57,164 nt of DNA from an uncultured Candidatus Saccharibacteria bacterium (GTDB taxonomy: Bacteria; Patescibacteriota; UBA1384; DATEAH01; CAYPSR01): NCBI GenBank assembly GCA_964448035.1, contig CAYUUY010000001.1, forward strand, positions 1 to 57,164. The letters run 5' to 3'. Shown here one piece after another: positions 1,073 to 46,338 of the stretch. The notes under the pieces are model-generated. The model worked only from the letters and a program-made list of their open reading frames with translations. It was not told the origin of the DNA and searched no databases. Position numbers and translations under genes: made by a program. Each line of letters begins with the position of its first letter. The stretch's first letter is position 1.

Positions 1073-1080
1073 TTAAGGAT

Positions 1081-2070: not shown

Positions 2071-2162
2071 AATAATTCTATGTTTTATAGATATATTTCA
2101 AGTATTATCAATAATAGCATTATTTGGAATAGGAATATATTGTTGGTATAAAGGAGAAGAAA

Positions 2163-6700: not shown

Positions 6701-7168
6701 TATGAAGATGTTTTAAAATCAATGATATTAGAACGAAAGAATGCCAAATTTCCAAAAGAACAAATTAGTGAAATTATAAATAGATATTTAGCAAAACCAG
6801 ATGTCATGCAAATGATTTCTAGAGAATATAAAGTTAAACCTTTTATTACTTATGCTAAAGAAGGACAGATTCAGGCACAAATAAGTAAGCAATATTTTAA
6901 TGGGGAAGATGGTATTATTGATTTAATTAAGAATAATAAAATTGGCAAGGTCGGAGAAGGTGCTAAATATTGCACTGTTCAAGAGGCCATCGATTCTAAT
7001 TTAAAATCCGAAGATTTGGATTTAGAAAAATTATGGAATGAACTTGATCCGTTTGTTATTTATGTTCCAAAAGTGAAAAAAGAAAAAGCGGTTAAAGAGA
7101 AAAAGTCTAAAAAAGTTGCAAATAAAAAAAATATTTTAACAAAAAATTATGATGAGGTAACAATATAA
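3785..7168 (+). CDS. Family B DNA polymerase precursor containing one intein
   Basis: Exo I 'VIDCETCS', Exo II 'GFNSAEFDFPIL', Exo III 'YLKSDV', motif A 'DYASLYPHI', motif B 'KIFLN|SLYG' split by the insert, motif C 'YGDTDG'. Confidence 0.9.
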   Translation: MYNVQTLNKVKLSCLVIDCETCSFFPDGRKINLQTNFDEYVEFAQVKFIGAYSYQDDRYYFLNMTINSDREIAKRLLATHKTIVGFNSAEFDFPILKNNDLTDTDVWYTQVDCMHILGTSNVKNRGGFAYKNRGELMGYKFKNNKLRTMAEAMGLETQKGDIDYTIFEKNSWTKEELEEIQIYLKSDVMATKEMFDKLWEYWIPFVEMLDEKSVYDLSWIRLSIASLTYKCACNVMGVEPTYGEHRGKKEKMGGTVLKPTVEEAKDVWYIDYASLYPHILCMFNLFAEVDGDDINKPNIWHGNNVFKVKGYYDISEPHILSKHVMENLKERINLKKTSPDDPMIYAFKIFLNCFSKDTDVLMADNRIQNIKDCKIGELVYSINPKTLIAEKKKIKKVFEYNYTGEMHHYKGNYFDFNVTPNHRFLLVHKNRKQSPVFVESIDIQNKYTLPIHKPLNKYKKQINILNYINKDELLYSIKPLNKHGRTWLYENGLENIKKQYNCNDRNFVYSFNDIKHRLNSILKSKNSSIYLLNKKYKTSRKISVFYDNNTLSYLIGIYLAEGSTSIIRPRLYSNGNIRGTTYSISLSQSKSKNPIIYKKITDALDKCNLKYSGGKKAIKISGPIFYEFIVNNFGKLGYKSFNNKNMFDDLNIKKVFEGLIDGDGSKKHKLFTTKYDCLRDDFIELCMRLGYTLSLKNDGCWRIVYNNNPNSFRKANRSINEYNDKVYCVEVEDNNTLMAGRNKKFNWSGNSLYGVLRSLIFEKVGGKNGGWDTCWLGQQMHELTVEMMDSFGFDTLYGDTDGCMVRARPGTENTREYVLECLEQIVDIVQDNVPFPVDTFKIDIENHLDYIAFPHSMEKISFKSIDLDKDDVINNEIEEYVWVSLRKYYKDFTDKEILDILTELVLKNEDKPEDKINLKIKNRLITEWTGKKKNYLYICKEKDKESGELKDVIKLVGLPIKKDNATKLGITIYEDVLKSMILERKNAKFPKEQISEIINRYLAKPDVMQMISREYKVKPFITYAKEGQIQAQISKQYFNGEDGIIDLIKNNKIGKVGEGAKYCTVQEAIDSNLKSEDLDLEKLWNELDPFVIYVPKVKKEKAVKEKKSKKVANKKNILTKNYDEVTI
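4841..6034 (+). mobile_element. Intein (398 aa) with LAGLIDADG homing endonuclease in PolB motif B
   Basis: Starts with Cys ('CFSKDTDVLM'), block B 'TPNH', LAGLIDADG motifs 'YLIGIYLAEGS' and 'FEGLIDGDGS', ends 'FNWSGN' followed by +1 Ser. Removal restores 'KIFLNSLYG' (KxxxNSxYG). Confidence 0.85.
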
Positions 7169-20889: not shown

Positions 20890-21029
20890 AACATATATTG
20901 AAAAATTTCTAGGGATTATAAATGTTATGGTTGTTATCTTTAATATAATATTATTGTTTCTTTTCTTATGTGGGATCAGTCTCAAAATTGGCATTCATAA
21001 ATATTGGTATAAACTGTTTGGATATAAAA

Positions 21030-22991
21030 ATGAGTAAAATAAAAAATATTTTAAATGATGGTTTTTATGATGTATTTGGTGAATTAATAAATCAAAATTT
21101 CATAGATATTTATATAACTAAATGCATGAATCAATTAAAAGGAATAAAAGAACAAACAAGTTCACAAGAAATTCCTATTACATCATACCCAATTGCAAAA
21201 TATGAATTGTTACAAAACAAAAAAGGACTATATGTAAAAACAGTACCCGTTAATTATAATCCATGTTTTGTTGTAGCCGGTGGCCCTTCCTTAAAAAACT
21301 TTAATTTTGATTTATTAAAACATAAAACTACTTTTGTATCAAATAAATCCATTTTTGATGTTCCAAATACTAACTATTTTGTTACGACGGATTATACTTT
21401 TTTGAGTTATCTTAAAAAGAATAATCTATATAATAAATGGCGAAGTAATAAAGCAGAAAAATATTTTGTTGCTAACTGTATATCGGATACAATACAAAAC
21501 ATAAATGGACAAATAACTGATACAAAATATAATCTAACTTACGATTTACAGGATTTTGATAAGATAGTTATTTGTAAATCGGCAAAAAACGTGGGTTTTG
21601 ATTTTGACAATTTTAATAGTGGATATAATTCGGGTTTTTGTTTTGATGATAAAACGCAGATTCTTACTAAAAGAGGATGGAAATATTTTAAAAATTTAAA
21701 ACATAATGACACTGTATTAAGTTTAGACCCAAAAACCCAAATAGCGGATTATTATCCTATTTCAGACATTCAATGTTTTGATTATAGTGGTGATTTATAT
21801 TGTAAATCTGTATCAAGAGGACATCAAACCGATTTTGCAGTTACACCAGATCATTCTATGTTTGTTTATAGTAGAGATAGAAAAAAATATGAATTTAAAC
21901 CAGCAAAATTTTTTAATGACCACCCTAAAAATGACCATTACACATTAAAAACCGATTTTAAATGGGTAGGAAAACACGCTGATTATATTAAAATAAACGG
22001 AAAACAATATACTGGTTGGGGAAATTATAAAAAAATTCAATACAAAATAAAATCCGAAATATTTATGCAGTTTTTAGGATGGTATTTAAGCGATGGTAAC
22101 AATTATTGTGGTATAAATAGTTGGGGAGAAACATACAGAATTACTATTTATCAAAGTAAAAAATCTAAACACCTTGATGAAATTAGGTCTATTCTGTCAC
22201 AATTACCATTCAAATATGTAGAATCAGAAAATAAAAATATGCTTTCTTTTCGTATAACAAACAATGTGCTAGGAAAATATATAAAAAAACATTGTGGAGG
22301 ATCTGGTGTGTCCAAAAAAATACCCAATTATCTGAAATTTTTAACACCAGATCTAATTCATTTATTTTTAATGGCATATATGAATGGTGATGGAACTAAA
22401 GTGAAAACTGGCTATACTGTTTCCACGATAAGTAAAAAAATAGGATATGGAATGCTGGAATTGTTTTTAAAAGCAGGATACAAAAGAGTAAATTGCACAC
22501 GTGTAAAAAATAAAAAACACAGAGTTTTTCCTGGTGGGTTTAAAGCAAATTTAAAAAAACATAACTATGTAGTGCACGCAACAAATAATACTACAGAAGA
22601 ACGATTGATATTTAATCCAGATACTATATCTTATAGTGGTAAGGTATACGATGTAACCGTTGAACCACACCATACCATTTTTGTTAAGAGAAACGGTATG
22701 CCATTTTGGTCAGGAAATTGTTCATTTCAAATGGCATTAATAATGGGTTATAATCCAATTTATTTATTGGGATTTGATATGAATTGTGATCAAAAAGATA
22801 CCCATTATCATGACGGATACGGAAAAAGCAAAGAAAAAATGGATCAAAATCTTCTAAATTATTCAACACATTTTAAACATATATTACAAAAATTAAGAAT
22901 AGATAGACCAAATTTGCAAATTATTAGTTGCTCAAAAACAAGCATTTTAAATAAAATAATAGATTATAAAGATATAAAGGATGTTTTATGA
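21030..22991 (+). CDS. DUF115/GT42-like glycosyltransferase precursor containing one intein
   Basis: 'FVVAGGPSLKN' N-terminal motif. Exteins rejoin as 'GYNSGF|CSFQMALIMGYNPIYLLGFDMN', paralogous to 20107-20889. Start taken at 'MSKIKNIL' (track start 20970). Confidence 0.6.
   Translation: MSKIKNILNDGFYDVFGELINQNFIDIYITKCMNQLKGIKEQTSSQEIPITSYPIAKYELLQNKKGLYVKTVPVNYNPCFVVAGGPSLKNFNFDLLKHKTTFVSNKSIFDVPNTNYFVTTDYTFLSYLKKNNLYNKWRSNKAEKYFVANCISDTIQNINGQITDTKYNLTYDLQDFDKIVICKSAKNVGFDFDNFNSGYNSGFCFDDKTQILTKRGWKYFKNLKHNDTVLSLDPKTQIADYYPISDIQCFDYSGDLYCKSVSRGHQTDFAVTPDHSMFVYSRDRKKYEFKPAKFFNDHPKNDHYTLKTDFKWVGKHADYIKINGKQYTGWGNYKKIQYKIKSEIFMQFLGWYLSDGNNYCGINSWGETYRITIYQSKKSKHLDEIRSILSQLPFKYVESENKNMLSFRITNNVLGKYIKKHCGGSGVSKKIPNYLKFLTPDLIHLFLMAYMNGDGTKVKTGYTVSTISKKIGYGMLELFLKAGYKRVNCTRVKNKKHRVFPGGFKANLKKHNYVVHATNNTTEERLIFNPDTISYSGKVYDVTVEPHHTIFVKRNGMPFWSGNCSFQMALIMGYNPIYLLGFDMNCDQKDTHYHDGYGKSKEKMDQNLLNYSTHFKHILQKLRIDRPNLQIISCSKTSILNKIIDYKDIKDVL
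21639..22718 (+). mobile_element. Intein (360 aa) with LAGLIDADG homing endonuclease in a DUF115/GT42-like gene
   Basis: 'CFDDKTQILTKRGW' N-terminus, 'TPDH' block B, 'FLGWYLSDGN' and 'FLMAYMNGDGT' LAGLIDADG motifs, 'VYDVTVEPHHTIFVKRNGMPFWSGN' then +1 Cys. Confidence 0.8.
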
Positions 22992-23149: not shown

Positions 23150-23830
23150 ATGAGTGAAAAAATTTCGATTTTAATTCCTGTTTATAACAGGGAAGGTTTT
23201 ATTGAACGAGCAATAAATAGTAGTTTAAATCAAACATATAAGAATTTACAAATTCTTGTTTATGATGACGGATCGAATGATAAAACCAGAGAAATTGTGA
23301 TTGATATAGCACAAAAGGATAATCGTGTAAAATTGTTTTGTAATACACCAACAAAAAACGAAGGAGTAGGAAAGGCCCGAAATTTGTTATTAAAATTTTG
23401 CGATACAAAGTATGCTATATGGCAAGATAGTGACGACATTTCTGCACCAACACGAATCGAAGAACAATTAAAAGAGATGACTGAAGACAAAATGGTTTAT
23501 TGTACGTGGGAAAATTTTAAGACTAAAGTGCCAGGAACAACAAGAGGGTTTGCAACTCTTATGTTTCCAGTAAACAAGGGTGTTCTTTTTCCTGAAGATA
23601 TGAAGTTTGGCGGGGAAGATCAATGTTGGAGAGATGAAATGGAAAAGATTTATCCTACATCCGATGTAAATCAAGTTCTTTATTCAATAGATTTTCACGG
23701 AAACCGAATAGGAACGTGGAAACGAAAGATTGACAAAAATTGGAACGGAAAATACGATTTGAATGATATTAAAGACTTGTCATATGAAGATGCAATAAAA
23801 AAATATATGAACGAATATCAAACCAAATAA
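23150..23830 (+). CDS. Family 2 glycosyltransferase (GT-A)
   Basis: 'ISILIPVYNREGFIERAINSSLNQTY', 'YDDGSNDKT', 'QDSDD' DxD motif. Confidence 0.8.
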   Translation: MSEKISILIPVYNREGFIERAINSSLNQTYKNLQILVYDDGSNDKTREIVIDIAQKDNRVKLFCNTPTKNEGVGKARNLLLKFCDTKYAIWQDSDDISAPTRIEEQLKEMTEDKMVYCTWENFKTKVPGTTRGFATLMFPVNKGVLFPEDMKFGGEDQCWRDEMEKIYPTSDVNQVLYSIDFHGNRIGTWKRKIDKNWNGKYDLNDIKDLSYEDAIKKYMNEYQTK

Positions 23831-23839
23831 AGGAAATAT

Positions 23840-24463
23840 ATGACTCCAGAACTTTTGCTATTCTATCAAAAACTTGTTAATAAACAAAATTTCTCCCTTG
23901 TCCGTTTTGGTGATGGAGAACATAACATTATGGACAATGTTGCATGTAATCGAAAAGGTTTTGATTTTGATCCTAAAGATGCTAGAGATCAAGAATTTAA
24001 AAGAGATTTACGTGAAGCATTTAAATTTAAAAGTCCACGATATTATAAAGGGCTGGATTACACGAATATAGAAGAAAACATAGTTTATGCTTGTCTTTTT
24101 GTTAATAATAGTTATTTAGATTTTTTGGACAATTTCTCACCTCTTTTTGAAAACTGTATTTTTGTTGGTAATGAATTAGGAATGGATTGGCAATTGCCAT
24201 TTAAACCACAAAAATATATTAGAATTAAAGAAAACGCTTGGAAGGACTATAATTCTAATTTATTAAATCTTTTTTTATCTAATTATTTAACCAATAAGAA
24301 TAATGAAATTGTATTAGTTGCAGGTGGCCCCATGAGTAATGTTTTAATTTATAAATTATATAAAAATAATCCTAATAATACTTATATAAATGTTGGAAGT
24401 GTATTTGATCCTCACATTTTTGGTTTTCTTACTCGCAAATATCAAGAAAGGTTATGTACATGA
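23840..24463 (+). CDS. GT-D-like (DUF1792-type) glycosyltransferase
   Basis: N-terminal 'SLVRFGDGEHNIM' resembles the DUF1792 'RxGDGE' signature; located between GT2 and HAD genes. Confidence 0.45.
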   Translation: MTPELLLFYQKLVNKQNFSLVRFGDGEHNIMDNVACNRKGFDFDPKDARDQEFKRDLREAFKFKSPRYYKGLDYTNIEENIVYACLFVNNSYLDFLDNFSPLFENCIFVGNELGMDWQLPFKPQKYIRIKENAWKDYNSNLLNLFLSNYLTNKNNEIVLVAGGPMSNVLIYKLYKNNPNNTYINVGSVFDPHIFGFLTRKYQERLCT

Positions 24464-24843
24464 AATACAAAGGATATTTAGCATTTGATTTTGATGGTGT
24501 AATAGCATCATATAATAGACCTTTTATTATAGATAAATTGGGTAAACCACAAAAATCTGTAATAGAAACAATTCGTTATTTTTACGACCAAGGATATTAT
24601 ATACTAATTTTTACTGGACGATTAGAAACTGTCAAATTTACAAAATGGTTAGAAAAAAATAATGTACCTTATCATGGTGTAAATGTACAACCAAGCAATA
24701 TGGCTGGAACAAATAATGATAAACCTTTTTATAATGTAATTATAGACGATAAGGCTGTTAATTTTCATTGGGAAAACAACCATAAATCTAAAGATGAATT
24801 AATTAGTGAAATTGAAAGGAAGTTAGAATGGGCGAAGGAATAA
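24454..24843 (+). CDS. HAD-superfamily phosphatase-like protein
   Basis: Motif I 'AFDFDGVI', 'IFTGR', terminal 'IIDDKA'. Confidence 0.55.
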   Translation: MYMKYKGYLAFDFDGVIASYNRPFIIDKLGKPQKSVIETIRYFYDQGYYILIFTGRLETVKFTKWLEKNNVPYHGVNVQPSNMAGTNNDKPFYNVIIDDKAVNFHWENNHKSKDELISEIERKLEWAKE

Positions 24844-25529
24844 ATGATATCGTTGTGAGAGCATGTTTATCAACTAATTTTGGAGATAATCTTAACTCAG
24901 AGTTAGTTCGATTAATTTCTGGACAAACACCAAAATTGGTAAATAACAGATTTGGCAATCTAGAAAAAGAAACTATCTATATGGCAATAGGCAGTGTTCT
25001 TGGATGGGCTACTGAAGAAACTGAAGTCTGGGGAGCAGGATTTATTTCTGATTCAGATTTTGTTACAGATATACCAACGCCAAAAAGAATCCATGCCGTT
25101 AGAGGGCCAGAAACAAGAAATATTTTAATAACTAAAGGAATCAGATGTCCTGAAATATTTGGTGACCCCGCATTATTGATGCCCAGATTTTATAATCCAA
25201 AATTAGAAAAGAAATATAAAATATCAGTAATTCCACATGCAATTGATAGAGTATTAATTCCAGAATTAACCAAATCATTTCCTAATGCTCATTTTATTGA
25301 TGTAACACAAGATGTATATAAATTTATAGACGAGGTTATTAAATCAGAATATATTATTTCATCTGCCCTTCATGGGTGTATTACTGCGTATGCATATGGT
25401 GTTCCTTATGAACATCAAAAATTTTCAGACAAGGTCTTGGGAAATGGGTTCAAATTCGAAGATTTTGAAAAAAGCAAACAATATATTGATTTAGATAAAT
25501 TACTAAAAGTCTGTCCATTTGTTCAATAA
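24828..25529 (+). CDS. Polysaccharide pyruvyl transferase-like protein
   Basis: 'NFGDNLN', 'HAVRGPETR', 'GDPALL', 'ISSALHGCITAYAYGVP' match the PS_pyruv_trans pattern as I recall it. Confidence 0.55.
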   Translation: MGEGINDIVVRACLSTNFGDNLNSELVRLISGQTPKLVNNRFGNLEKETIYMAIGSVLGWATEETEVWGAGFISDSDFVTDIPTPKRIHAVRGPETRNILITKGIRCPEIFGDPALLMPRFYNPKLEKKYKISVIPHAIDRVLIPELTKSFPNAHFIDVTQDVYKFIDEVIKSEYIISSALHGCITAYAYGVPYEHQKFSDKVLGNGFKFEDFEKSKQYIDLDKLLKVCPFVQ

Positions 25530-25777
25530 TAACATTTGTTATTGTTGAAGCCGGAGACACAACTGGAAATTTTCTTAGAAACATAAATTTAAATTATATA
25601 ATAAACCAGAACTTGATTTATAACCTCTACAGGATATGTGTCTGTTTAGAAAGGAAAACAATGATAAAATATTTAAAAATATTATATGAATTTATTATAA
25701 ATTTTGATAATAATTGTTTTGGGCCATCTAAGAAAAGAAAAATTGATAAAGCTGCAAAAAATCCATTTATATAAAAA

Positions 25778-25807
25778 TTGACAAAAACAAAATAAATATG
25801 GTATAAT
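25778..25807 (+). promoter_or_regulatory. Sigma70-like promoter, copy 3 (TTGACA-N18-TATAAT, extended -10 TGG)
   Basis: ttgaca 25778-25783, tataat 25802-25807, in a 574-nt gap with no long ORF (small ORF 25661-25774 is listed under rejected); followed by GGAGG RBS and ATG 25830. Confidence 0.55.
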
Positions 25808-25829
25808 TATAATAAATGGAGGATTTATT

Positions 25830-25961
25830 ATGACAAAATATAAATCGGTATTAAGAATAGTTTGGAGTATAAAACAGGCTTCTTTATTTTTTAAAATTAA
25901 TTTTACATTGATTGTTTTTATAAAAACAATAAAGAAATGGATAAATAATGACTATCAATGA
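25830..25961 (+). CDS. small hypothetical protein (43 aa, partly hydrophobic)
   Basis: Strong GGAGG RBS 25817-25821; translated by hand. Confidence 0.4.
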   Translation: MTKYKSVLRIVWSIKQASLFFKINFTLIVFIKTIKKWINNDYQ

Positions 25962-26106
25962 AAGAGTAAAAATCGACAACACAATTTATTATGTTATTGC
26001 CCAAACAGATAACGAAGTTTGTGTATTACAAAATTTTGAATTTACAGACGGTATAACAAGACAACTCAAAATATGGACGCATAATTATGAAAGGGTAACT
26101 GAATGA
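25948..26106 (+). CDS. small hypothetical protein (52 aa)
   Basis: ATGA coupling to the 26103 gene; translated by hand. Confidence 0.4.
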   Translation: MTINERVKIDNTIYYVIAQTDNEVCVLQNFEFTDGITRQLKIWTHNYERVTE

Positions 26107-26567
26107 ACAGAAAAACACTAGAAAGAATATCTGTATTAGAAACTAGAATTTTCGAATTAGAGAATAATTTAAAGAAATATTTTATTCCTAATCAAGAGTT
26201 TAAGGAATTAAAAAATCGGTTAATTAATATTGTAAATGATATGAATTTTGATTATCCTTTTGAATTAGATGAGGGCAGTACATGTTTCAATTTTTATAAA
26301 TTAATAGACATGAAAGAAACAGTCATTGAGCATGGTAATGTGTATATCTTATTGACAGGTAGTCGTGTAGATAATGACTTAGCTTTATGGGATTTAAAAC
26401 AATTAAATCCAAATTATTATGATATCAATAATCTATTACTTTCTAATAATATAAAAAGATTATACGATAATAGAATAAACGCAGATGAGGCTTATTTGAT
26501 AGCATTAAATGATATAAACCAAACCGAAATACCAATTGAAAACATTGCAAAATTTGTTAGGAAATAA
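26103..26567 (+). CDS. hypothetical protein
   Basis: 154-aa ORF. Confidence 0.55.
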   Translation: MNRKTLERISVLETRIFELENNLKKYFIPNQEFKELKNRLINIVNDMNFDYPFELDEGSTCFNFYKLIDMKETVIEHGNVYILLTGSRVDNDLALWDLKQLNPNYYDINNLLLSNNIKRLYDNRINADEAYLIALNDINQTEIPIENIAKFVRK

Positions 26568-26568
26568 A

Positions 26569-28860
26569 ATGAAAATATGTCTTATTTATCTTCCACACCC
26601 TTATTTAGTTGATCCAGAGGCCCAAGCCCCTTTGGGTCTACTTTATATTGCTAGTTCATTAGAACAAACCAAACAACATGATGTTATTTTAAAAAACTAT
26701 TCTTCTTATACTGAAGAAGAGGCAATCAATGATTTACCGGAGTGTGATGTTTATGGTATAACAGTAACAGCACTAGAATTATTGCAGTCTAATGATTTTG
26801 CAAAGAAAATAAAAAATAAATATCCTAATAGTAAAGTCATTCTTGGTGGGCCTGGAACATTTAGCGATCAATATGTCGATTGGATAGTTATTGATTCTAT
26901 ATTAAAGGGTGAAGGAGAAATTACCATACATACTATCTTAGACGATATTTTGTTAGGTAATGAACAAAAAATTTATAAAGGAGAAGTTGTTAAAAATCTA
27001 GACATAATTCCTTTTCCAGCTAGGCATTTGTTAAAAGATAAACAAGGCGGTCATATTTTTGCAAATCATACAACCTTCGATAAAACATTTAGTATGGAAT
27101 ATAAAGGAAAAGGAACCACATCAATATTAACAAGTAGGGGATGCGGATGGGGTTGCAGTTTTTGTTCAAGTCCTGGAATGAACCAAAAATTACGATTTCG
27201 TAGTCCTCAAAATGTATATAATGAAATAAAACATATTGTAGATACATATAAAATAAAACAGTTTCGTTTTTCAGATGAAATGTTTACGGCTAATAAAAAA
27301 CATGTATTGGAAATTTGCGAATTAATAAAACCATTGGGTATTGTGTGGAGAATTTCGGCAAGGGTCAAACCACTATCAATGGAAATATTAAAGGCAATGA
27401 AAAAGGCGGGATGTGTTGAGATAAGTTTTGGTGTGGAATCGTTTGATGATGATGTATTGAAAGGACTAAATAAGGGGACAACAGCAGAGGATAATGCCAA
27501 AGCGTTACAGATGGCAAAGGACGCAGGATTAATGGTTCGTGTTTTATTCATGATCAGGACTCCTTGGCAAACCATTGATACTGTTTATAAGAATATTGAT
27601 TGGCTAAAAAAGGTTCCATATGATACAATTGCGTGTACATCATTCGTTCCTTTGCCTGGATGTTTTGATACAAAAACAGAAATTTTAACCAAATTGGGAT
27701 GGAAAAAATATAACGAAATTGGTTATAATGATTATTTTTTAACAAGAAACATAAATAATGAAATTGAATATCAAAAACCGTTGAAAATAACTAAAGAAAA
27801 ATATTCTGGAGAAATGATAAAACAAAAAAGTAAATGTATAGACTATTTTGTTACACCAAATCACAAATTTTTAATCAACACATATTATAAAAACGATTTT
27901 CAGTTTAGATATGCCAAAGATATAAAAATAAACAATAGAATTCCAAATATTGGAAAATGGATAGGTATAACACCAGAACCAATAATTTATATAGGAAAAC
28001 ATACCTTTAATATGAAAGATTGGGTAGCTTTTTTAGGTATTTTTATATCTGAAGGATGTACATTTAAATGTAAAAATTATATATATAGGGTGCAAATAAC
28101 ACAATCTAAAAAGGATAATGTTAGAAAAATAAAAAATCTTTTAAATGACATGGGATTAATATATTCTTATAACAACGATAAAGATTTTGTTATAAATTCA
28201 AAAGATTTATATTTAAAATTAAAACCGTTGGGAAAAAGTTGGGAAAAATATATTCCCAATGATATAAAACAGTTGAATTCGGATTATTTAAAAATATTAT
28301 ATAAATGGTTAATAATGGGTGATGGACATTCAAGAACAAAATATTATGACCAAACATATTATTCAACATCAATTCGTTTGGTAAATGATATATTAGAAAT
28401 TTTATTAAAAATAGGTAAATGTGGTAATTATTCTGTACGAGAACCAAAAGAATGTTATATTAGAGGAAGAAAAATATCATCTAAAAGATTGCTATATACC
28501 ATACAAGAAAGAAAAAGCAAATTTACAAAACTTCACACTCAAAACCATAAACCTCAAAAAGTTCATTATGATAACACTGTTTGGTGTGTTTCTGTTCCTA
28601 ATAAGGTTATATATGTAAGAAGAAATGGTAAATGTTATTTTTCTGGAAATAGTGATATTTGGAAAAAACCAGATGATTACAATATTGAAATTTTAAATCG
28701 TAATATCCAAGACTACAATTTTTATTTTTATGGGCGAGATGGAAAAAATGATTTAAAGGATATTATTAAAATAAAGGATCGTTCACTTGAAGAATTAAAT
28801 GCAGAATCTACTTATTTTCGAAACTGGATAGAACAGCAAGGTAAAACCAATAAAGGATAA
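26569..28860 (+). CDS. B12-binding (class B) radical SAM enzyme precursor containing one intein
   Basis: N-terminal cobalamin-binding-like domain ('ICLIYLPHP...APLGLLYIASSL', 'GGPG'), radical SAM cluster 'SRGCGWGCSFC' (CxxxCxxC). Exteins rejoin as 'FVPLPG|SDIW'. Start at 'MKICLIY' (track start 26536). Confidence 0.8.
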   Translation: MKICLIYLPHPYLVDPEAQAPLGLLYIASSLEQTKQHDVILKNYSSYTEEEAINDLPECDVYGITVTALELLQSNDFAKKIKNKYPNSKVILGGPGTFSDQYVDWIVIDSILKGEGEITIHTILDDILLGNEQKIYKGEVVKNLDIIPFPARHLLKDKQGGHIFANHTTFDKTFSMEYKGKGTTSILTSRGCGWGCSFCSSPGMNQKLRFRSPQNVYNEIKHIVDTYKIKQFRFSDEMFTANKKHVLEICELIKPLGIVWRISARVKPLSMEILKAMKKAGCVEISFGVESFDDDVLKGLNKGTTAEDNAKALQMAKDAGLMVRVLFMIRTPWQTIDTVYKNIDWLKKVPYDTIACTSFVPLPGCFDTKTEILTKLGWKKYNEIGYNDYFLTRNINNEIEYQKPLKITKEKYSGEMIKQKSKCIDYFVTPNHKFLINTYYKNDFQFRYAKDIKINNRIPNIGKWIGITPEPIIYIGKHTFNMKDWVAFLGIFISEGCTFKCKNYIYRVQITQSKKDNVRKIKNLLNDMGLIYSYNNDKDFVINSKDLYLKLKPLGKSWEKYIPNDIKQLNSDYLKILYKWLIMGDGHSRTKYYDQTYYSTSIRLVNDILEILLKIGKCGNYSVREPKECYIRGRKISSKRLLYTIQERKSKFTKLHTQNHKPQKVHYDNTVWCVSVPNKVIYVRRNGKCYFSGNSDIWKKPDDYNIEILNRNIQDYNFYFYGRDGKNDLKDIIKIKDRSLEELNAESTYFRNWIEQQGKTNKG
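27661..28650 (+). mobile_element. Intein (330 aa) with LAGLIDADG homing endonuclease in a radical SAM gene
   Basis: 'CFDTKTEILTKLGW', 'TPNH', 'FLGIFISEGC' and 'WLIMGDGHS', 'VWCVSVPNKVIYVRRNGKCYFSGN' then +1 Ser. Confidence 0.8.
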
Positions 28861-28862
28861 GT

Positions 28863-29168
28863 ATGAACATATTTTGTGATATATATGGAACATTGACCGA
28901 TGATGGAGAACATAGAAATGGTATTCCAAATTTATATAGGATATGTAAAATAAAACAATTATCACTTACTAATACTGTATATTTGTGGAGCGGGAATGGG
29001 CAAACATATGCTGAAGAGTTTCGCATTAAACATGGTTTGCTTCGTTGTACAGCAATAGGAAAACCACATTTAATAATTGATGATAATCCAACTATAAGAC
29101 CAAATTGGGATTCTTTAATTAAAACACCAGATTGTTTAGATAAGGAGCATATAAATGTCAATACTTAA
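28863..29168 (+). CDS. HAD-like small protein with degenerate motif I
   Basis: 'FCDIYGTLT' (DxYGT instead of DxDGT), 'GKP', 'IIDDN'. Confidence 0.4.
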   Translation: MNIFCDIYGTLTDDGEHRNGIPNLYRICKIKQLSLTNTVYLWSGNGQTYAEEFRIKHGLLRCTAIGKPHLIIDDNPTIRPNWDSLIKTPDCLDKEHINVNT

Positions 29169-29391
29169 TAACACACAGTTGGATCGTGATAGAGTTAATT
29201 GTTTTAAATGTTATTGGGTCGTGCATCCACACTATGACGATTTTGATAATTTATCTGTAATGTGTTCTTGTCCTTATATGGAAATGATAAAGGATGAATA
29301 TGATTATTATAATCAAAATCATAATTGCAGATACTTTTATAAACAAAAAACAATTTGTCAAAAAATTATTAAATTTTTGAGGGGTTTTTAA
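29155..29391 (+). CDS. Cys/His-rich hypothetical protein
   Basis: 78-aa ORF, 'CFKC...CSC...C'. Confidence 0.5.
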   Translation: MSILNNTQLDRDRVNCFKCYWVVHPHYDDFDNLSVMCSCPYMEMIKDEYDYYNQNHNCRYFYKQKTICQKIIKFLRGF

Positions 29392-29392
29392 T

Positions 29393-30088
29393 ATGAAATT
29401 TATACTTAACGAAAATCAGCATGATAGGGATGTTGAATTAGCAAAATTATTAAATTTACCATTAGAAAAAATACAAAAATTACCAATGTGCACACCCGAT
29501 TCAATTAGAATTTCTAATGGTGATAAACCAGAAAATTTAGAAGACTTGTATCATGACTATGAACACTTAAATTTTCCAGCTTATTTACGCACATTAATGA
29601 TGACCAGTGCAACAAGAAGACACCCTGCTCTTTTTGAATTATTAAGAGAAACAAAAAATAAGATTTGTCTTGATTTTGGATCAGGAGTAGGAACGCACGC
29701 TATTGCTTTACATGAAAATAGTAATATTGTTCATTTACTTGATGTTCCAGGAAAATTATTTGATTTTGCTAAAAAAAGACTAACAAATATAGGTTGCGAA
29801 TTTTTTATATGGTTTAATAACAATATGGCTTTACCAGAAGATTATTATGATGTTGTTATTTGTTCTGACTGCTTGGAACATGTCCAATCACCAATCAAAG
29901 AATTGAAACGTATTCATAAATCAATGAAAGTAGGTGGTATTCTTCACTTGCTTGTTTCAACAATGAGAAAACCTAGTAGTGGTCACTTTGATAGTTCAAT
30001 TGATGAATGGATAAAGTATGGTAAGAAATTTATGATTGACAATTTCTATGAAATTAAACCAACAATTTATCAGAAAAAGGAAAAATAA
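29393..30088 (+). CDS. Class I SAM-dependent methyltransferase
   Basis: Motif I 'CLDFGSGVGTHA', 'LLDV', 'VVICSDCLEHV', 'GGILHL'. Confidence 0.75.
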   Translation: MKFILNENQHDRDVELAKLLNLPLEKIQKLPMCTPDSIRISNGDKPENLEDLYHDYEHLNFPAYLRTLMMTSATRRHPALFELLRETKNKICLDFGSGVGTHAIALHENSNIVHLLDVPGKLFDFAKKRLTNIGCEFFIWFNNNMALPEDYYDVVICSDCLEHVQSPIKELKRIHKSMKVGGILHLLVSTMRKPSSGHFDSSIDEWIKYGKKFMIDNFYEIKPTIYQKKEK

Positions 30089-30157
30089 TGGAAGATAAAA
30101 CAATTTTAAATATAAATCCTAAAGATATTACTATTTTATCAGGTATTTCTGGAAGTA

Positions 30158-30643
30158 ATGGCAAAAGAACTTTATGAAGCAGGAACCACATTTATTTTGG
30201 TTACTGCATATAGCGAGCAAGAAAACGAACGATTACTAAATGTTAGAAAAAATGTAACAGATACAATTGATAAAAAATATATAAATAATGTATCTTTTTA
30301 TATTAGAAAATCATACAAATTAGATTCAAGACTTAATATGAATGGTAAAAGTGGGGCCTGTTATGCACCATTAACAGAATTATTAATTTGCCCAGATGGA
30401 AAATTAAGACTATGTTGTATGGATATCGATGAAAATGAAGCCTTTGGTGATCTTCATAAAGAAAATTTTGAAGATATTATTATAAATAATCATGAAAGAC
30501 TTACTAAACTTCGAGAATCTCTTATTAAATCAGAAAGAACATTAGAACTATGTAAAAAGTGCAATTTTGTAAATAGAATGAAAGGTTTTTATATGAGTAA
30601 GGGTGATTTTAGAAATAATGCATCAAAATTAAAAAGGAAATAA
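30158..30643 (+). CDS. SPASM/twitch-like Cys-rich domain protein without a radical SAM core
   Basis: 'GACYAPLTELLICPDGKLRLCCMD...FGDLHKENFEDII...LELCKKCNF' resembles the C-terminal auxiliary-cluster domain of radical SAM/SPASM proteins; no CxxxCxxC present. Confidence 0.4.
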   Translation: MAKELYEAGTTFILVTAYSEQENERLLNVRKNVTDTIDKKYINNVSFYIRKSYKLDSRLNMNGKSGACYAPLTELLICPDGKLRLCCMDIDENEAFGDLHKENFEDIIINNHERLTKLRESLIKSERTLELCKKCNFVNRMKGFYMSKGDFRNNASKLKRK

Positions 30644-30852
30644 TGATACACGCACTTGTAATAGCCGGTTCATATCAACAATTCAAATATTGGCTATGGG
30701 AAAATCGACAATGTGAAAAAGACTATTTTTATGTAAATGATTGGGAGAGCTGTCTTGGATTACGAAATTTACCAATTTTATTGGTAGAACAGTATGGTAA
30801 AAGTCCAGTCAATCCTTATATATTATCGGAAATGATACAAGATGATTGCTAA
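30643..30852 (+). CDS. hypothetical protein
   Basis: 69-aa ORF, TAATG coupling. Confidence 0.45.
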
Positions 30853-31336
30853 AAAACTCAAATTAACAATGGGAGCCAATTGTCAACTTTCACCACAGGC
30901 CCACATTGGATATCACGAAACTGGAAAAGGATCAATAACTTTAGGGAATAAGGTCATTATTCGTCATGGTTGCGTTATCAGAACTTGTTCTGGTGACATA
31001 AAAATAGCAAATAACACGGTTATTAACTATAACTGTATTATTCATGGCCTTGGTGGCGTTACAATAGGGTCTGACGTGCTTTTTTCACCAAATGTGCAAA
31101 TGTATGCTCAAAATCATGGAACGGCCCGTGACAGGCTAATTAGAAGCCAAAGCAACGAATCTAAAGGTATTAAGATAGGAAATGATGTTTGGATAGGAGC
31201 AGGAGTCATTATTTTAGATGGAGTAACAATAGAAACCGGTGCAATTATTGGTGCTGGGTCAATTGTTAATAAAAATGTGCCTTCTTATGAAATTTGGGCA
31301 GGTAATCCAGCAAAAAAGATTGGAGAACGTAAATGA
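30842..31336 (+). CDS. Left-handed beta-helix (hexapeptide repeat) acetyltransferase
   Basis: Hexapeptide repeats '[31 protein letters not shown]' and terminal '[10 protein letters not shown]'. Confidence 0.8.
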
Positions 31337-31722
31337 ATTCGGTATTAGATAAACAATTATGTGATAAATATCCTAAAATTTTTGTTCAACGCAATTTACA
31401 ACCAGATCAAACAGCAATGTGTTGGGGATTTGAATGTGGTGATGGTTGGTATTGGCTCATAGATTCACTTTGTAATCAGTTACAATGGGATATAGATCAT
31501 AACCGTTATCCACAGATAGAAGCAGTACAAGTTAAAGAAAAGTTTGGTGGTTTACGTTTTTATGTTTCTGGTTGTAATGAAAACCAATCTGGAAGTATAG
31601 AATTTGCCGAATTATTATCATCTACTATTTGTGAAAAATGCGGTCAACCAGGAGCCACACAGACAGAAACAGGATGGATACAAACTTTGTGTGATAAATG
31701 TAAAGATGAAGGAAACCAATGA
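31333..31722 (+). CDS. hypothetical protein (conserved phage '[10 protein letters not shown]' type)
   Basis: '[12 protein letters not shown]' and 'CEKCG...CDKC' recur in uncharacterised phage proteins. Confidence 0.55.
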
Positions 31723-32594
31723 AAAGAATCGCCTTTATAATACCATTTTTCTACAAATGGGGCAACTATAGTAATGTCCGTGCTAACTATGAATTTTTAC
31801 AAAAGCATGGTTATATTGTAGATATTTATAGCAAAAAAGATAATAAACCTATCAATTTTGATAATTATGACCTAGTTATGATGCATGGGTCTGGGGCTTT
31901 TTTAACAGATGAACAATTTAAAAATTGTAAAATACCTATTATTGCACTCGGCTGGTCTGATCCCAACATGTTTAATGAAGTTCATTTTAATCAAGGCACT
32001 ATTTATTGTACTAATGATTTAACGCTATCCCATGAATTAAAGGGTAAACCTATATATTTTTACAATACAGCATGTGATAAAAGACATCATATTGACTTAA
32101 AACTAAAAAAGGAAACCGATATTTTAGTATATGGAGTAGGAAAACATCCTTTTGTTCCTAATAGAAATAAAGTAGTCAATAATCTAAGAAGAGACGGTTT
32201 TTCTGTTAAAGTGTTTGGCCGCAATTGGGATTCTCATAAAGACACATATGATTTTATTGAAGGTGAAGGGTTATCTTGTGAAATTTGTAAAGCACATATT
32301 CTTCTTGATGTGACAAACAAAGAAACGGCCTGGGGACATAGGGTTTTTGAATCTAGTGCAAGAGGAACACCAGTTTTAACAATAGACAGAGAAGATACAC
32401 GTTCTATGTTTGAACCAGATTCGGAAATTGTTCTTTATAAAAATTATAATGATATGAAAGAAAAATTAACTTTTTATTTAAAGTCAAAAGAAATACTTCG
32501 TGAAATTGGTATTAATGCTCAAAAAAGATGTTACAAAGACCATGATATTAGTATAAAAATAAAAGAATTGATTAAAATAATAGGGGATTTTTAA
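31719..32594 (+). CDS. GT1 / CgeB-like glycosyltransferase
   Basis: C-terminal 'RVFESSARGTPVLT' (E-x7-E-region-like GT-B motif); Rossmann-like N-terminus 'KRIAFIIPF'. Confidence 0.5.
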   Translation: MKRIAFIIPFFYKWGNYSNVRANYEFLQKHGYIVDIYSKKDNKPINFDNYDLVMMHGSGAFLTDEQFKNCKIPIIALGWSDPNMFNEVHFNQGTIYCTNDLTLSHELKGKPIYFYNTACDKRHHIDLKLKKETDILVYGVGKHPFVPNRNKVVNNLRRDGFSVKVFGRNWDSHKDTYDFIEGEGLSCEICKAHILLDVTNKETAWGHRVFESSARGTPVLTIDREDTRSMFEPDSEIVLYKNYNDMKEKLTFYLKSKEILREIGINAQKRCYKDHDISIKIKELIKIIGDF

Positions 32595-44745: not shown

Positions 44746-45364
44746 ATTTTATTACTAAAACTGGTGCTTCGGAACCTGCTAATGTTTGTGTTGCACTTAT
44801 TACCACTTTTAGTTGACAATAAAGATTTTTAGCAACTGTCAATGCACCATTTTGATTGTTTAAAAAAAGAAAATTCCCTGATCCACTTCCGGCAAGTCGA
44901 GAACCTACCCATCCAACACCTGGCAATCCATCTGTAGTGGTGATTCCTCTCCACCATGAACTAGATGCCACCCCACCACCAAGAGATGTGTTATCGATTG
45001 AATCAAGATCAGTATTATCCCATATTTCTAGGACTGGCTCTGATGAGGTACTGCCATCAAACGAAAAACCAAAAACATAGCGTGAGTTAGATGATCCTGC
45101 TAATTCTATCTCTTTATAAATACCGGCCGAATTATCCGCTAATAAATATTTATCTATGGTTATTTCTGAACCAGTTAAAATAACTCCAGCCTGATTCAAT
45201 GCGTCTTCTCCTGCAATAACTTCACCATCTTTTACAGTATCACTCCCAGCCGTTATTATAAGTTCGTCATTGTCGGTATCTACCAATAAAAACTCTGATC
45301 CGCTAGTACCTAATGCCGAATCTTGACTTCCTATGTTGGCATAAATTTCTAATGTTGTGCTCAT
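44732..45364 (-). CDS. hypothetical tail protein flanked by two HNH genes
   Basis: 210-aa Gly/Ser/Thr-rich ORF. Confidence 0.5.
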   Translation of the reverse strand: MSTTLEIYANIGSQDSALGTSGSEFLLVDTDNDELIITAGSDTVKDGEVIAGEDALNQAGVILTGSEITIDKYLLADNSAGIYKEIELAGSSNSRYVFGFSFDGSTSSEPVLEIWDNTDLDSIDNTSLGGGVASSSWWRGITTTDGLPGVGWVGSRLAGSGSGNFLFLNNQNGALTVAKNLYCQLKVVISATQTLAGSEAPVLVIKYATT

Positions 45365-46338
45365 TATTTTGCTCCTTTTAATATATTATTTTCCATTATA
45401 TAAGTATAATATGCGAACCAGTAATCTCTGTGTTTGTTTGCTTTAGAATTACATTTAACACATAAAGTAATTAAATTTGATTCTTTACAGTTTTGTTTGT
45501 TATAGTCCATATGATGTACTGTTAATGATCTATTATATTTTTTAAAATGTGTAATATCACTCATATTACATTTTTTACATATAAAATTGTCTCTTGTGCG
45601 TATTTTTAATTTTAATATTGGTGTCCATTTTGGTGAATATGGTAAAAAACTAACACCACCTTTCCAATTATGATTACCATTTCCTACACAGTGTTTATTA
45701 TAACATGATCTACAATATTTTATGGTTCTTTTATAATCGCATAAATCTTTTCCGCAATCTATACATTTTGGTTTTCCACCCTTATAATTTGAATTGTTTT
45801 TCCCATATCTATTACCATAATCAATATCAAGTTGTTTTTTATATAATTTGTTGCAATTCCAACATCTTTTGTTTTTATAATCTATTGTTTTACCACAGTC
45901 TAAACACTTGGGTTTAGCGTTTTTATAATTAGGATTATTTATTGAAATACTCTTCCATGTTTGGTAACAATCCTTACATCTTTTTGATTTCCAACCTAAT
46001 TCCTTTCCACAATCAAAACAATGATATTTTTTTGCATATCTTTTGCCAAAATTTGAACTAAAAACACCTTTTTGTGAACATGACTTGCATCGTTTTGATG
46101 AATATTTAATTGTTTTTTCACAATCAATACATTTATTTATTTTTCTGTTTTTATGTGAATATTCATTACTACATTTGCTACATCTCGTTGATTTAAATCG
46201 TATCTCTTTTTTGCAATCAACACAATATTTTTTTGGTTTGATTTTTAATTTATGTTTATTATGGCAAGCCATGCACCTTACACAGTGTTTTGCTGATAAT
46301 ATTTTTCCACAATCCAAACAATGATTTTCCATAATCAT
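45364..46338 (-). mobile_element. HNH homing endonuclease with six tandem zinc-ribbon repeats
   Basis: Repeats 'C(L/I/V/F)DC(G/K/E)K.I....(K/S).RC..C' x6, then 'LTVHHMDYNKQNCKESNLITLCVKCN' HNH motif. Confidence 0.75.

What the first reader, a model, noticed from the sequence alone, without database searches (positions are those of the whole stretch)
27661..28650. Intein inside a B12-binding radical SAM enzyme
The radical SAM gene has an N-terminal cobalamin-type domain and the cluster 'CGWGCSFC'. It is interrupted after 'TSFVPLPG' by a 330-aa element with 'CFDTKTEILTKLGW', 'TPNH', 'FLGIFISEGC', 'WLIMGDGHS' and a terminal 'YFSGN' followed by +1 Ser. Splicing would restore 'FVPLPGSDIW', which matches the conserved 'PxPG(T/S)' segment of this enzyme class. 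This is again a highly unusual host protein for an intein.
Basis: partly seen in the sequence, partly recalled or inferred. Interest (0 to 1): 0.8.

Follow-up and report, generated by a model that had tools for sequence, protein, structure and literature searches.

The report
Homing intein inside a phage B12-radical-SAM gene

Summary
ORF 26569..28860 (+) encodes a 763-aa precursor. Residues 365-694 (nt 27661..28650) form a 330-aa insert between PLPG and SDIW. The insert has all the class-1 intein marks: Cys1, TPNH, two LAGLIDADG motifs with their acidic residues, and a C-terminal Asn followed by Ser. Its AlphaFold model (pLDDT 93.9) matches the endonuclease-bearing inteins TliVMA, PI-PfuI, PI-SceI and PI-PkoII.

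With the insert removed, the 433-aa protein aligns end to end, without a gap at the junction, with hundreds of 423-441-aa homologues (up to 76% identity). It models as a cobalamin-type radical SAM enzyme. The insertion point lies in the loop after core strand beta6, inside a PxPG(S/T/C) motif shared with AprD4 and MgmA.

Among 5.8 billion protein clusters I found only two intein-bearing alleles of this enzyme. All 27 readable viral-contig homologues are uninterrupted.

The intein belongs to a huge family (over 9,000 cluster representatives). Family traits are a penultimate Gly instead of His and a Cys at Block F position 4. Two more members sit in this same window.

A radical SAM host is not unprecedented: Pyrococcus abyssi MoaA carries an intein. 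Verdict: a real intein, a new member of a known kind, of modest interest.

The parts
26569..27660 (+). N-extein of the radical SAM precursor (364 aa): B12-binding Rossmann-like domain (about nt 26629..26931) and the radical SAM core through strand beta6. It ends in ...TSFVPLPG. An upstream in-frame TTG at 26536 is the mechanical ORF start.
   Evidence: PF02310, PF04055. Gene callers on independent contigs use the ATG at 26569.
27142..27165 (+). CX3CX2C motif (CGWGCSFC), the predicted [4Fe-4S]/SAM cluster ligands.
   Evidence: C192, C196 and C199 are invariant in 45 homologues. The region aligns to the cluster loop of AprD4 and MgmA.
27661..28650 (+). The intein, 330 aa, from Cys1 to Asn330.
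   Evidence: Absent from all but one homologue, with gap-free flanks. AF2 pLDDT is 93.9. Top Foldseek hits are HE-associated inteins.
27661..28011 (+). N-terminal half of the HINT splicing domain. It includes Block A (CFDTKTEILTKLGW, 27661..27702) and Block B (VTPNHKFL, 27850..27873, with Thr65 and His68).
   Evidence: C1 and H68 are invariant in alignment A2. C1 is present in 150/150 family copies and TxxH in 143/150.
28012..28419 (+). LAGLIDADG homing-endonuclease domain. Motif 1 is FLGIFISEGC (28030..28059, acidic Glu). Motif 2 is WLIMGDGHS (28306..28332, acidic Asp).
   Evidence: PF14528 is above its cut-off. The family profile aligns both motifs to PI-PkoII (LLGYYVSEGY and YFIGDGD) and to I-DmoI. 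Foldseek to I-DmoI gives TM 0.62 normalised to target length. D221 and G222 are invariant.
28420..28650 (+). C-terminal half of the HINT domain. Block F is VWCVSVPNKVIYV (28579..28617, Cys309 at F:4). Block G is NGKCYFSGN (28624..28650, penultimate Gly329, terminal Asn330).
   Evidence: The family consensus for Block F (YCvsv) aligns with YDLSV of PI-PkoII; the window has WCVSV there. 'GN' ends 142/150 family copies and Cys sits at F:4 in 116/150.
28651..28860 (+). C-extein (69 aa plus stop). It begins with the +1 nucleophile Ser (SDIWKKPDDYNIEIL...).
   Evidence: It aligns without a gap to the C-terminal 69 residues of intein-less homologues. Position +1 is S, T or C in all homologues examined.

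Best explanation
This is a bona fide, probably active, class-1 (canonical) intein with an embedded double-motif LAGLIDADG homing endonuclease. It is inserted in frame in a phage-encoded B12-domain (class B type) radical SAM gene.

Proposed mechanism:
- The gene is translated as a 763-aa precursor in which the intein splits the radical SAM core right after strand beta6, inside the conserved PxPG(S/T/C) loop. The precursor is therefore expected to be inactive.
- The HINT domain then splices itself out. Cys1 attacks the Gly364-Cys365 bond (N-S acyl shift). The N-extein is transferred to the hydroxyl of Ser+1. Asn330 cyclises and releases the intein. An O-N shift makes the peptide bond Gly-Ser.
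- The product is a 433-aa enzyme with the native ...FVPLPGSDIW... sequence.
- The released intein acts as a site-specific endonuclease. During co-infection it cuts intein-less alleles of the same gene around ...CCTTTGCCTGGA|AGTGATATTTGG..., and repair copies the intein in (homing).

Shown here: the boundaries, the catalytic residues, the fold, the intein-less alleles, the empty site, and purifying selection on both intein domains. Inferred: actual splicing, endonuclease activity and target, and the chemical order of the steps.
For: (1) Precise in-frame insert. Intein-less homologues of 423-441 aa, up to 76% identical, cover 100% of the spliced sequence, and the alignment has no gap other than the 330-aa block.

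(2) All 27 readable IMG/VR homologue loci have an uninterrupted PxPG|S/C/T site.

(3) Class-1 signature residues are present: Cys1, Thr65-x-x-His68, Asn330 and Ser+1. In 150 family copies, Cys1 is present in 150/150, TxxH in 143/150, and the +1 residue is always S, C or T.

(4) The AF2 model has pLDDT 93.9 and pTM 0.91. The best PDB matches are TliVMA, PI-PfuI, PhoVMA, PI-SceI and PI-PkoII, all at probability 1.0 and TM 0.6-0.65. I-DmoI matches the middle domain, and Hedgehog and mini-inteins match the HINT part.

(5) The family profile hits PI-PkoII at 8e-21 and aligns both LAGLIDADG motifs with their acidic residues.

(6) The spliced extein models confidently (pLDDT 90.9) as a B12-type radical SAM enzyme. 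Foldseek hits are CysS, TsrM, AprD4 at TM 0.73, OxsB, MgmA and TokK. The junction lies in the loop after beta6 (E353-358). PLPGSDIW aligns with PYPGTELH of AprD4 and PIPGTEL of MgmA.

(7) A second intein-bearing allele (P0023) has the intein at the identical site. Between the two alleles, dN/dS is 0.19 for the extein, 0.22 for HINT and 0.27 for the endonuclease, so both intein domains have been under purifying selection.

(8) Distribution is patchy. Each intein-bearing allele has a closer intein-less relative (76% and 78% identity) than the other intein-bearing allele (67%).

(9) The intein is compositionally distinct: 23% GC against 33% in the N-extein.

(10) Related inteins sit in many unrelated phage genes: DNA methylases at the DPPY and FxGxG motifs, thymidylate synthase, RuvC, RNR, NAMPT and others.
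Against: There is no experimental evidence of splicing or of DNA cleavage.

The penultimate residue is Gly, not the canonical His. Block F position 4 is Cys, not the usual Asp. In some inteins such departures impair splicing. Here both are traits of the whole family, across many different hosts, which argues that they are compatible with function.

dS between the two alleles is near saturation (1.1-1.4), so the dN/dS values are rough.

The two inteins are no more similar to each other (65%) than their exteins are (67%). There is therefore no positive sign of recent homing.
Confidence: 0.88

Rival explanations
1. The element is a decaying or splicing-dead intein. The precursor cannot mature, so this copy of the radical SAM gene is effectively a pseudogene, tolerated because the gene is accessory for the phage.
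For: The penultimate residue is Gly instead of His, and the Block F Asp is absent. The gene lies in an accessory glycan-modification cluster. The intein is rare in this gene family, with 2 clusters among hundreds.
Against: The atypical residues are shared by 116-142 of 150 family copies in many essential-looking hosts, RNA-polymerase-like motifs among them. All nucleophiles and the TxxH motif are intact. dN/dS is well below 1 in the extein, HINT and endonuclease parts. All 59 invariant columns of the enzyme family are kept in the window protein. The identical 763-aa protein recurs on contigs from independent samples.
Confidence: 0.06
2. The intein splices by a class-3-like or mixed route. In this route the Block F Cys (Cys309) forms the first branched thioester instead of, or together with, Cys1.
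For: Cys occupies Block F position 4, the position of the class-3 nucleophile, because the family consensus YCvsv aligns with YDLSV of PI-PkoII. The HINT part's best sequence-level match among mini-inteins is the class-3 split intein AceL NrdHF: profile E = 1.6e-5, and 22% identity in Foldseek. The definition of class 3 is taken from PMC7664689.
Against: Cys1 is invariant in 150/150 family copies. The Block F Cys is replaced by V, A, S, I or D in about 34/150 copies at a fixed offset, so it is dispensable and Cys1 is not. The class-3 defining features fail: position 1 is a nucleophile, and the Block B position of the WCT tryptophan is Phe (TPNHKF).
Confidence: 0.04
3. The insert is not removed. 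It is a retained, independently folding domain of the mature enzyme, for example a domesticated DNA-binding or regulatory module.
For: The insert does fold on its own with high confidence. Insertion in a surface loop after beta6 could in principle be tolerated.
Against: The insert carries a complete set of splicing residues at exactly its two ends. Related copies occur at unrelated sites in unrelated proteins, always bounded by Cys1 and (G)N|S/T/C. More than 99% of homologues of the enzyme lack it. The site is a SAM-binding-region motif conserved out to AprD4 and MgmA.
Confidence: 0.02

Closest known systems
Homing-endonuclease-associated class-1 inteins with solved structures: TliVMA and PhoVMA (7QSS, 7QSU, 7QST), PI-PfuI (1DQ3), PI-SceI (1VDE and others), PI-PkoII (2CW7)
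   Same: They share the two-part architecture: a HINT splicing domain split by a double-motif LAGLIDADG endonuclease. They also share Cys1, TxxH, a terminal Asn and a +1 nucleophile. Foldseek gives probability 1.0 and TM 0.6-0.65, and the profile E-value to PI-PkoII is 8e-21.
   Different: Sequence identity is only 9-16%. This intein is more compact (330 aa against 360-540) and has no extra DNA-recognition or stirrup domain. It has a penultimate Gly instead of His and a Cys instead of Asp at Block F:4. Its host is a phage radical SAM enzyme rather than a V-ATPase, an RNR or a DNA polymerase.
Phage and metagenomic inteins of the same 'C1 ... (Y/W)C ... SGN' sequence family. Examples are in Staphylococcus Kayvirus RNR-alpha and NAMPT genes, Tenacibaculum phage PTm1 RNR-beta, Prevotella Lak megaphage, and metagenomic DNA methylases, thymidylate synthase and RuvC.
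   Same: They are clear homologues over the full 330 aa (26-44% identity; E down to 1e-43 and beyond). They have the same block signatures and the same endonuclease type. Two further members lie in this same window.
   Different: The host gene and insertion site differ. None of the listed relatives sits in a radical SAM gene, apart from P0023, which is the same site in an orthologue.
Pyrococcus abyssi MoaA intein (intein in a radical SAM enzyme, with a disulfide 'redox trap')
   Same: It is an intein interrupting an oxygen-labile radical SAM enzyme (PMC10663303; MoaA's membership of the radical SAM superfamily is established knowledge).
   Different: It is in a different radical SAM family, without a B12 domain, at a different insertion site, and in an archaeal chromosome rather than a phage. 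Its redox control depends on an N-extein Cys close to Cys1. I did not compare sequences directly. Nothing here shows a comparable trap.
Class-3 inteins (MP-Be DnaB, MchDnaB1, AceL NrdHF split intein, 6ZGQ)
   Same: Cys sits at Block F position 4. The association is phage-linked. AceL NrdHF is the best HINT-only match by identity.
   Different: Class-3 inteins lack the Cys/Ser at position 1 and carry the Trp-Cys-Thr motif (PMC7664689). Here Cys1 is invariant and the Trp is absent, so this intein is not a member.

Membership tests
Intein (HINT protein-splicing domain), class 1 | Nucleophile (Cys/Ser) as first residue | tested here: met
   Cys365 of the precursor is intein residue Cys1. It is invariant in 19/19 and in 150/150 family copies.
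Intein (HINT protein-splicing domain), class 1 | Block B Thr-x-x-His | tested here: met
   TPNH is at residues 65-68. His68 is invariant, and TxxH is present in 143/150 copies.
Intein (HINT protein-splicing domain), class 1 | C-terminal Asn (or Gln/Asp) followed by Ser, Thr or Cys as first C-extein residue | tested here: met
   ...YFSGN|S. Across the family the +1 residue is S in 110, C in 20 and T in 20 copies.
Intein (HINT protein-splicing domain), class 1 | Penultimate His in Block G (common but not obligatory) | tested here: not met
   The penultimate residue is Gly329. 'GN' ends 142/150 family copies. The literature notes that functional inteins without this His exist (PMC7664689).
Intein (HINT protein-splicing domain), class 1 | HINT fold | tested here: met
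   The AF2 model has pLDDT 93.9. Foldseek hits solved inteins, Hedgehog Hh-C and a BIL domain at probability 1.0.
Intein (HINT protein-splicing domain), class 1 | In-frame insertion whose removal restores a contiguous, conserved host protein; intein-less alleles exist | tested here: met
   The spliced model has pLDDT 90.9.
Intein (HINT protein-splicing domain), class 1 | Demonstrated protein splicing | not testable with these tools
   This needs expression and mass spectrometry.
LAGLIDADG homing endonuclease (double-motif, monomeric) | Two LAGLIDADG helices, each ending in a catalytic Asp/Glu | tested here: met
   FLGIFISEG has the Glu and LIMGDG has the Asp. They align to PI-PkoII LLGYYVSEG and YFIGDG. 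PF14528 scores 27.1 bits against a cut-off of 22.5.
LAGLIDADG homing endonuclease (double-motif, monomeric) | Two alpha-beta-beta-alpha-beta-beta-alpha half-domains | tested here: met
   Foldseek to I-DmoI gives TM 0.62 normalised to target length.
LAGLIDADG homing endonuclease (double-motif, monomeric) | Site-specific cleavage of the intein-less allele | not testable with these tools
   The candidate target sequence is taken from intein-less alleles.
Class-3 intein | No Cys/Ser/Thr nucleophile at position 1 | tested here: not met
   Cys1 is invariant.
Class-3 intein | Trp(B:12)-Cys(F:4)-Thr(G:5) motif | tested here: not met
   Only the Cys is present. B:12 is Phe (TPNHKF) and G:5 is Ser. The definition is from PMC7664689.
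Cobalamin-dependent (class B) radical SAM enzyme (the host protein) | CX3CX2C cluster motif in a partial TIM-barrel radical SAM core | tested here: met
   C192, C196 and C199 are invariant. PF04055 scores 80 bits. The model has six core strands.
Cobalamin-dependent (class B) radical SAM enzyme (the host protein) | N-terminal Rossmann-like B12-binding domain | tested here: met
   PF02310 scores 33.5 bits (cut-off 32.1) on the spliced protein and 31.9 on the precursor. Full-length Foldseek matches are CysS, TsrM, AprD4, OxsB, MgmA and TokK.
Cobalamin-dependent (class B) radical SAM enzyme (the host protein) | Actual cobalamin binding and use; membership of a named equivalog (HpnJ, BchE, etc.) | tested here: inconclusive
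   The best NCBIfam hits, HpnJ (127 bits) and BchE (120 bits), are far below their cut-offs of 578 and 481. The protein is therefore an uncharacterised subfamily. Cofactor use cannot be tested here.

The most novel reading that the evidence does not exclude
The intein is more than a parasite. Because it splits the SAM-binding beta6 loop of an oxygen-labile Fe-S/B12 enzyme, and carries several cysteines (Cys1 and the Block F Cys309 among them), splicing could be conditional. It might be redox-gated, as in the P. abyssi MoaA intein, so that the phage's glycan-modifying radical SAM enzyme matures only under reducing, anoxic conditions in the infected cell. A related possibility is that this very large 'Cys1 + Block-F Cys + penultimate Gly' family uses a mechanistic variant intermediate between class 1 and class 3.
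Probability: 0.08. Interest if true: 0.55.

Novelty: new member of a known kind. Interest (0 to 1): 0.3.

Why it matters
The finding adds a B12-domain radical SAM enzyme, and a new insertion site (the PxPG|S loop after core strand beta6), to the list of intein hosts.

It also shows that an accessory glycan-modification cluster of an uncultured phage carries two inteins, and the phage's DNA polymerase carries a third, all from one family. That supports the view that large phages are reservoirs and shuttles for inteins.

Practically, the deposited protein (GenBank MCK9544164.1) is annotated only as 'radical SAM protein' of a Novosphingobium MAG. The intein should be annotated, and anyone expressing this enzyme family should use the 433-aa spliced sequence.

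The compact 330-aa intein, with its penultimate Gly and Block-F Cys, represents a very abundant family. I found no solved structure for it by sequence search, so it may interest intein mechanists and tool builders. None of this changes current understanding of inteins.

Tried and rejected
- Single-sequence phmmer of the intein against PDB sequences found nothing. A family profile was needed.
- The search for related loci with the single protein on viral contigs found no relatives. The alignment-based scan worked, but all 28 loci returned are of intein-less length.
- I looked for further intein-bearing alleles with degenerate DNA patterns spanning the N-extein/intein junction. The strict pattern found nothing in JGI metagenomes or IMG/VR.
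- The relaxed pattern found one contig, L039. Its intein sits in an unrelated 1031-aa protein (...NFPWPG|C...IGQ|S), not in a radical SAM gene. IMG/VR again gave nothing.
- The tblastn hit to Bacteroides phage BF766P4, which seemed to extend into the exteins, is an intein in an unrelated 472-aa hypothetical protein.
- Literature searches for an intein in a class B or B12 radical SAM enzyme found none. They did find the MoaA precedent.
- From memory, NCBI uses the name 'intein-containing Rv2578c family radical SAM protein'.
- I considered a group I intron with a free-standing endonuclease and rejected it. The reading frame is continuous and the splicing residues sit at the protein-level boundaries.
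- I considered recent homing or co-conversion. The inteins (65% identity) are no more similar than the exteins (67%), so nothing positive can be said.
- The insertion site is conserved, but within this closely related family it is not an outlier: it falls at the 30th percentile of 10-residue entropy windows.
Full report
**1. What is in the sequence**

A single ORF runs on the + strand from 26536 (TTG) to 28860. The likely start is the ATG at 26569, giving 763 aa. Gene callers on independent public contigs chose the same start.

The insert begins with Cys at nt 27661 and ends with Asn at nt 28650, 330 residues in all. It is preceded by ...TSFVPLPG and followed by SDIW....

Pfam places B12-binding (PF02310) and Radical_SAM (PF04055, 78-80 bits) on the flanks. 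On the insert it places LAGLIDADG_3 (27.1 bits, cut-off 22.5) and a weak Intein_splicing hit. CGWGCSFC is the CX3CX2C cluster motif, and its three cysteines are invariant in 45 homologues.

The insert is AT-richer than the N-extein: 23% GC against 33%.

**2. The extein test**

I joined the flanks in silico to give a 433-aa protein and searched 5.8 billion protein clusters. About 2,000 homologues came back. The best are 74-76% identical over 100% of the query and are 423-441 aa long, so they have no insert.

In the multiple alignment the only large gap is the 330-aa block. It falls exactly between PLPG and (S/T)(D/E)IW.

A scan of IMG/VR with the alignment returned 28 viral contigs, up to 277 kb long, carrying homologues. 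In all 27 that could be read across the site, the motif is uninterrupted: P-x-P-G followed directly by Ser (17), Cys (10) or Thr (1). The host site therefore already supplies the +1 nucleophile an intein needs.

At the DNA level the fused window flanks are GTTCCTTTGCCTGGA|AGTGATATTTGGAAA. The empty site of the closest intein-less allele (P0002) is GTTCCTTTACCTGGA|AGTGAAATTTGGGAT.

NCBIfam and PDB alignments of the spliced protein run through the junction. PLPGSDIW pairs with PYPGTELH of AprD4 (6FD2) and with PIPGTEL of the MCR glutamine methylase MgmA (9CCB).

**3. The host enzyme**

An AlphaFold model of the spliced protein, built from a 45-sequence alignment, is confident (pLDDT 90.9, pTM 0.89). 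It has a Rossmann-like N-domain followed by six core strands. The junction 364|365 lies in the loop immediately after the sixth strand (E353-358) and before a short helix.

Foldseek finds cobalamin-type radical SAM enzymes first: CysS, TsrM, AprD4 (TM 0.73), OxsB, MgmA and TokK.

A review of these enzymes lists a 'beta6 motif' as one of the four classical SAM-binding motifs (PMC9204698). Placing the intein at or next to that motif is my inference from the model's secondary structure, not a measured contact.

The enzyme is not a member of any named equivalog. HpnJ and BchE are the best NCBIfam hits but score far below their cut-offs.

Its neighbours in the window are:
- a GT2 glycosyltransferase;
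- a polysaccharide pyruvyl transferase;
- a class I methyltransferase;
- a small stand-alone SPASM-domain protein;
- a hexapeptide acyltransferase;
- a GT1-like protein.

The same module surrounds intein-less homologues, both in other phage contigs and in bacterial contigs attributed to Pirellulaceae and to a deltaproteobacterial lineage. The enzyme therefore most likely modifies a sugar or glycan. This is an inference from context only.

**4. The insert is an intein with a homing endonuclease**

The insert alone finds 19 relatives in the word-indexed search, at 27-38% identity over its full length and E down to 3e-43. Each is embedded in a different host protein. The hosts include DNA methyltransferases (split at the DPPY and FxGxG motifs), thymidylate synthase, RuvC, a metallo-beta-lactamase-fold protein and a peptidase.

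In deposited phage genomes the insert matches inteins in Staphylococcus Kayvirus RNR and NAMPT genes, in Tenacibaculum phage PTm1 RNR-beta, and in Lak megaphages.

An exhaustive phmmer search of 1.84 billion cluster representatives gives 9,364 hits at E <= 1e-3 and 870 at E <= 1e-30. Many are giant proteins with several copies.

In 150 full-length copies taken from the best hits:
- the first residue is Cys in 150;
- Block B TxxH is present in 143;
- the last two residues are Gly-Asn in 142;
- the next residue is Ser, Cys or Thr in all.

The family profile hits solved inteins: PI-PkoII at 8e-21, Thermococcus and Pyrococcus VMA inteins at 1e-16, then I-DmoI, AceL NrdHF, MjaKlbA, PI-SceI and RecA. 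It aligns both LAGLIDADG motifs with their acidic residues. It also aligns the family consensus for Block F (YCvsv; WCVSV in the window) to YDLSV of PI-PkoII.

The AlphaFold model of the insert has pLDDT 93.9 and pTM 0.91. Its best PDB neighbours are all endonuclease-bearing inteins: TliVMA, PI-PfuI, PhoVMA, PI-SceI and PI-PkoII, at probability 1.0. I-DmoI matches the central domain. Hedgehog, BIL and mini-inteins match the splicing domain.

**5. Which mechanistic class**

Two features are non-canonical. The penultimate residue is Gly, not His. Block F position 4 is Cys, the position of the class-3 branch nucleophile, instead of Asp.

Class-3 inteins are defined by the absence of the position-1 nucleophile and by a Trp-Cys-Thr motif (PMC7664689). 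Here Cys1 is invariant across the family. The Block-F Cys is replaced by V, A, S, I or D in roughly a fifth of copies, and the Trp position is Phe. I therefore assign the canonical class-1 pathway and treat a class-3-like route as a minor rival.

The same paper notes that inteins lacking the penultimate His can still splice. The family-wide conservation of Gly-Asn in many hosts argues the same.

**6. Distribution and evolution**

Searching the full precursor against the 5.8-billion-cluster database puts only two intein-bearing clusters at the top:
- P0140 is identical to the window protein. It is GenBank MCK9544164.1, named 'MAG: radical SAM protein [Novosphingobium sp.]'.
- P0023 (758 aa) lies on a 52.9-kb phage-like contig with the same gene neighbourhood.

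Everything else is intein-less. Junction-spanning DNA patterns found no further alleles in JGI metagenomes or IMG/VR.

The two intein-bearing exteins are 67% identical. Each has a closer intein-less relative (76% and 78%). The two inteins are 65% identical. This patchiness fits the gain and loss expected of a mobile intein. There is no sign of a recent transfer, so old residence with repeated precise loss is equally possible.

Nei-Gojobori estimates between the two alleles give dN/dS of 0.19 for the extein, 0.22 for HINT and 0.27 for the endonuclease. dS is close to saturation, so these values are rough. Both intein domains have nevertheless evolved under constraint.

**7. Setting**

The window is part of a tailed phage. 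It carries a tape-measure protein, a Laminin_G tail-fibre-like protein, an RNA ligase, an exonuclease and a family-B-like DNA polymerase.

It holds three inteins of the same family:
- this one;
- one in the DUF115/MptE-like gene (nt 21639..22718, 27% identical, ending FWSGN|C);
- one in the DNA polymerase (nt 4841..6034, CFSKDT...NWSGN|S, splitting KIFLN|SLYG).

**8. Comparison with what is known, and verdict**

Architecture, fold, catalytic residues and genetic behaviour are those of an ordinary endonuclease-bearing class-1 intein.

A radical SAM host is not unprecedented. The P. abyssi MoaA intein is a well-known case. However, I found no report of an intein in a B12-domain radical SAM enzyme or at this site.

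The finding is real and cleanly supported. It is a new member (new host and site) of a known kind, and its interest is modest.

The most novel reading still open is conditional, redox-gated maturation of an oxygen-labile enzyme, or a mechanistic role for the Block-F Cys. It has no direct support here.

Noticed in passing
window 4841..6034 (within ORF 3785..7168, +): A third intein of the same family sits in the 1127-aa DNA-polymerase-like ORF (phrog_262). It reads CFSKDTDVL...NVTPNH...LIGIYLAEGS...LIDGDGS...KVYCVEVED...NWSGN|S. It splits a KIFLN|SLYG motif that, from memory, resembles the KxxxNSxYG motif of family B polymerases. Pfam hits are Hom_end_hint and Intein_splicing.
   Followed up: partly
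window 21639..22718 (within ORF 20970..22991, +): A second intein of the same family sits in the DUF115/MptE-like protein. It is 27% identical to the radical SAM intein (tblastn E = 5e-22). It starts CFDDKTQILT and ends FWSGN|C. The three inteins in the window are too diverged to be recent copies of one another.
   Followed up: partly
whole window; GenBank MCK9544164.1: The identical 763-aa protein is deposited as 'MAG: radical SAM protein [Novosphingobium sp.]', with no mention of an intein. The window is 29% GC and encodes a tape-measure protein and other tailed-phage genes. The contig is therefore very probably a phage contig mis-binned into that MAG. That Novosphingobium genomes are GC-rich is from my own knowledge.
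   Followed up: partly
window about 23150..32594; loci L002, L003, L009, L040, L041: A conserved glycan-type module (GT2, polysaccharide pyruvyl transferase, B12-radical SAM, one to three methyltransferases, hexapeptide acyltransferase, GT1-like, sometimes a carbamoyltransferase) is shared by several large phage contigs and by bacterial contigs named Pirellulaceae or Deltaproteobacteria. This suggests a phage-borne auxiliary glycan-modification pathway acquired from, or exchanged with, hosts.
   Followed up: partly
window 30158..30643 (+): A 161-aa protein consists essentially of a stand-alone SPASM iron-sulfur domain (PF13186, 37.8 bits) with no radical SAM core. It lies two genes downstream of the B12-radical SAM gene. 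Whether it partners with that enzyme is unknown.
   Followed up: no
proteins P0141-P0289: The intein family is very large (9,364 cluster representatives at E <= 1e-3). Many hits are proteins of 1,000-3,700 aa with 2-10 intein copies. Some flanks (VGDKL|SGRYG, NGDKM|SSRYA) look like RNA-polymerase beta-subunit motifs. The source organisms are unknown.
   Followed up: no
L039 749..789 and ORF 452..3547: A groundwater-type metagenome contig encodes a 1031-aa protein that carries a family intein after ...NFPWPG. The intein ends in Gly-Gln (IGQ|S) rather than Gly-Asn, so it has a C-terminal Gln.
   Followed up: no
window 45364..46338 (-): A 324-aa ORF with an HNH-endonuclease match (phrog_8446) lies in the tail-gene block next to the tape-measure gene. 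It is another possible mobile endonuclease in this phage.
   Followed up: no
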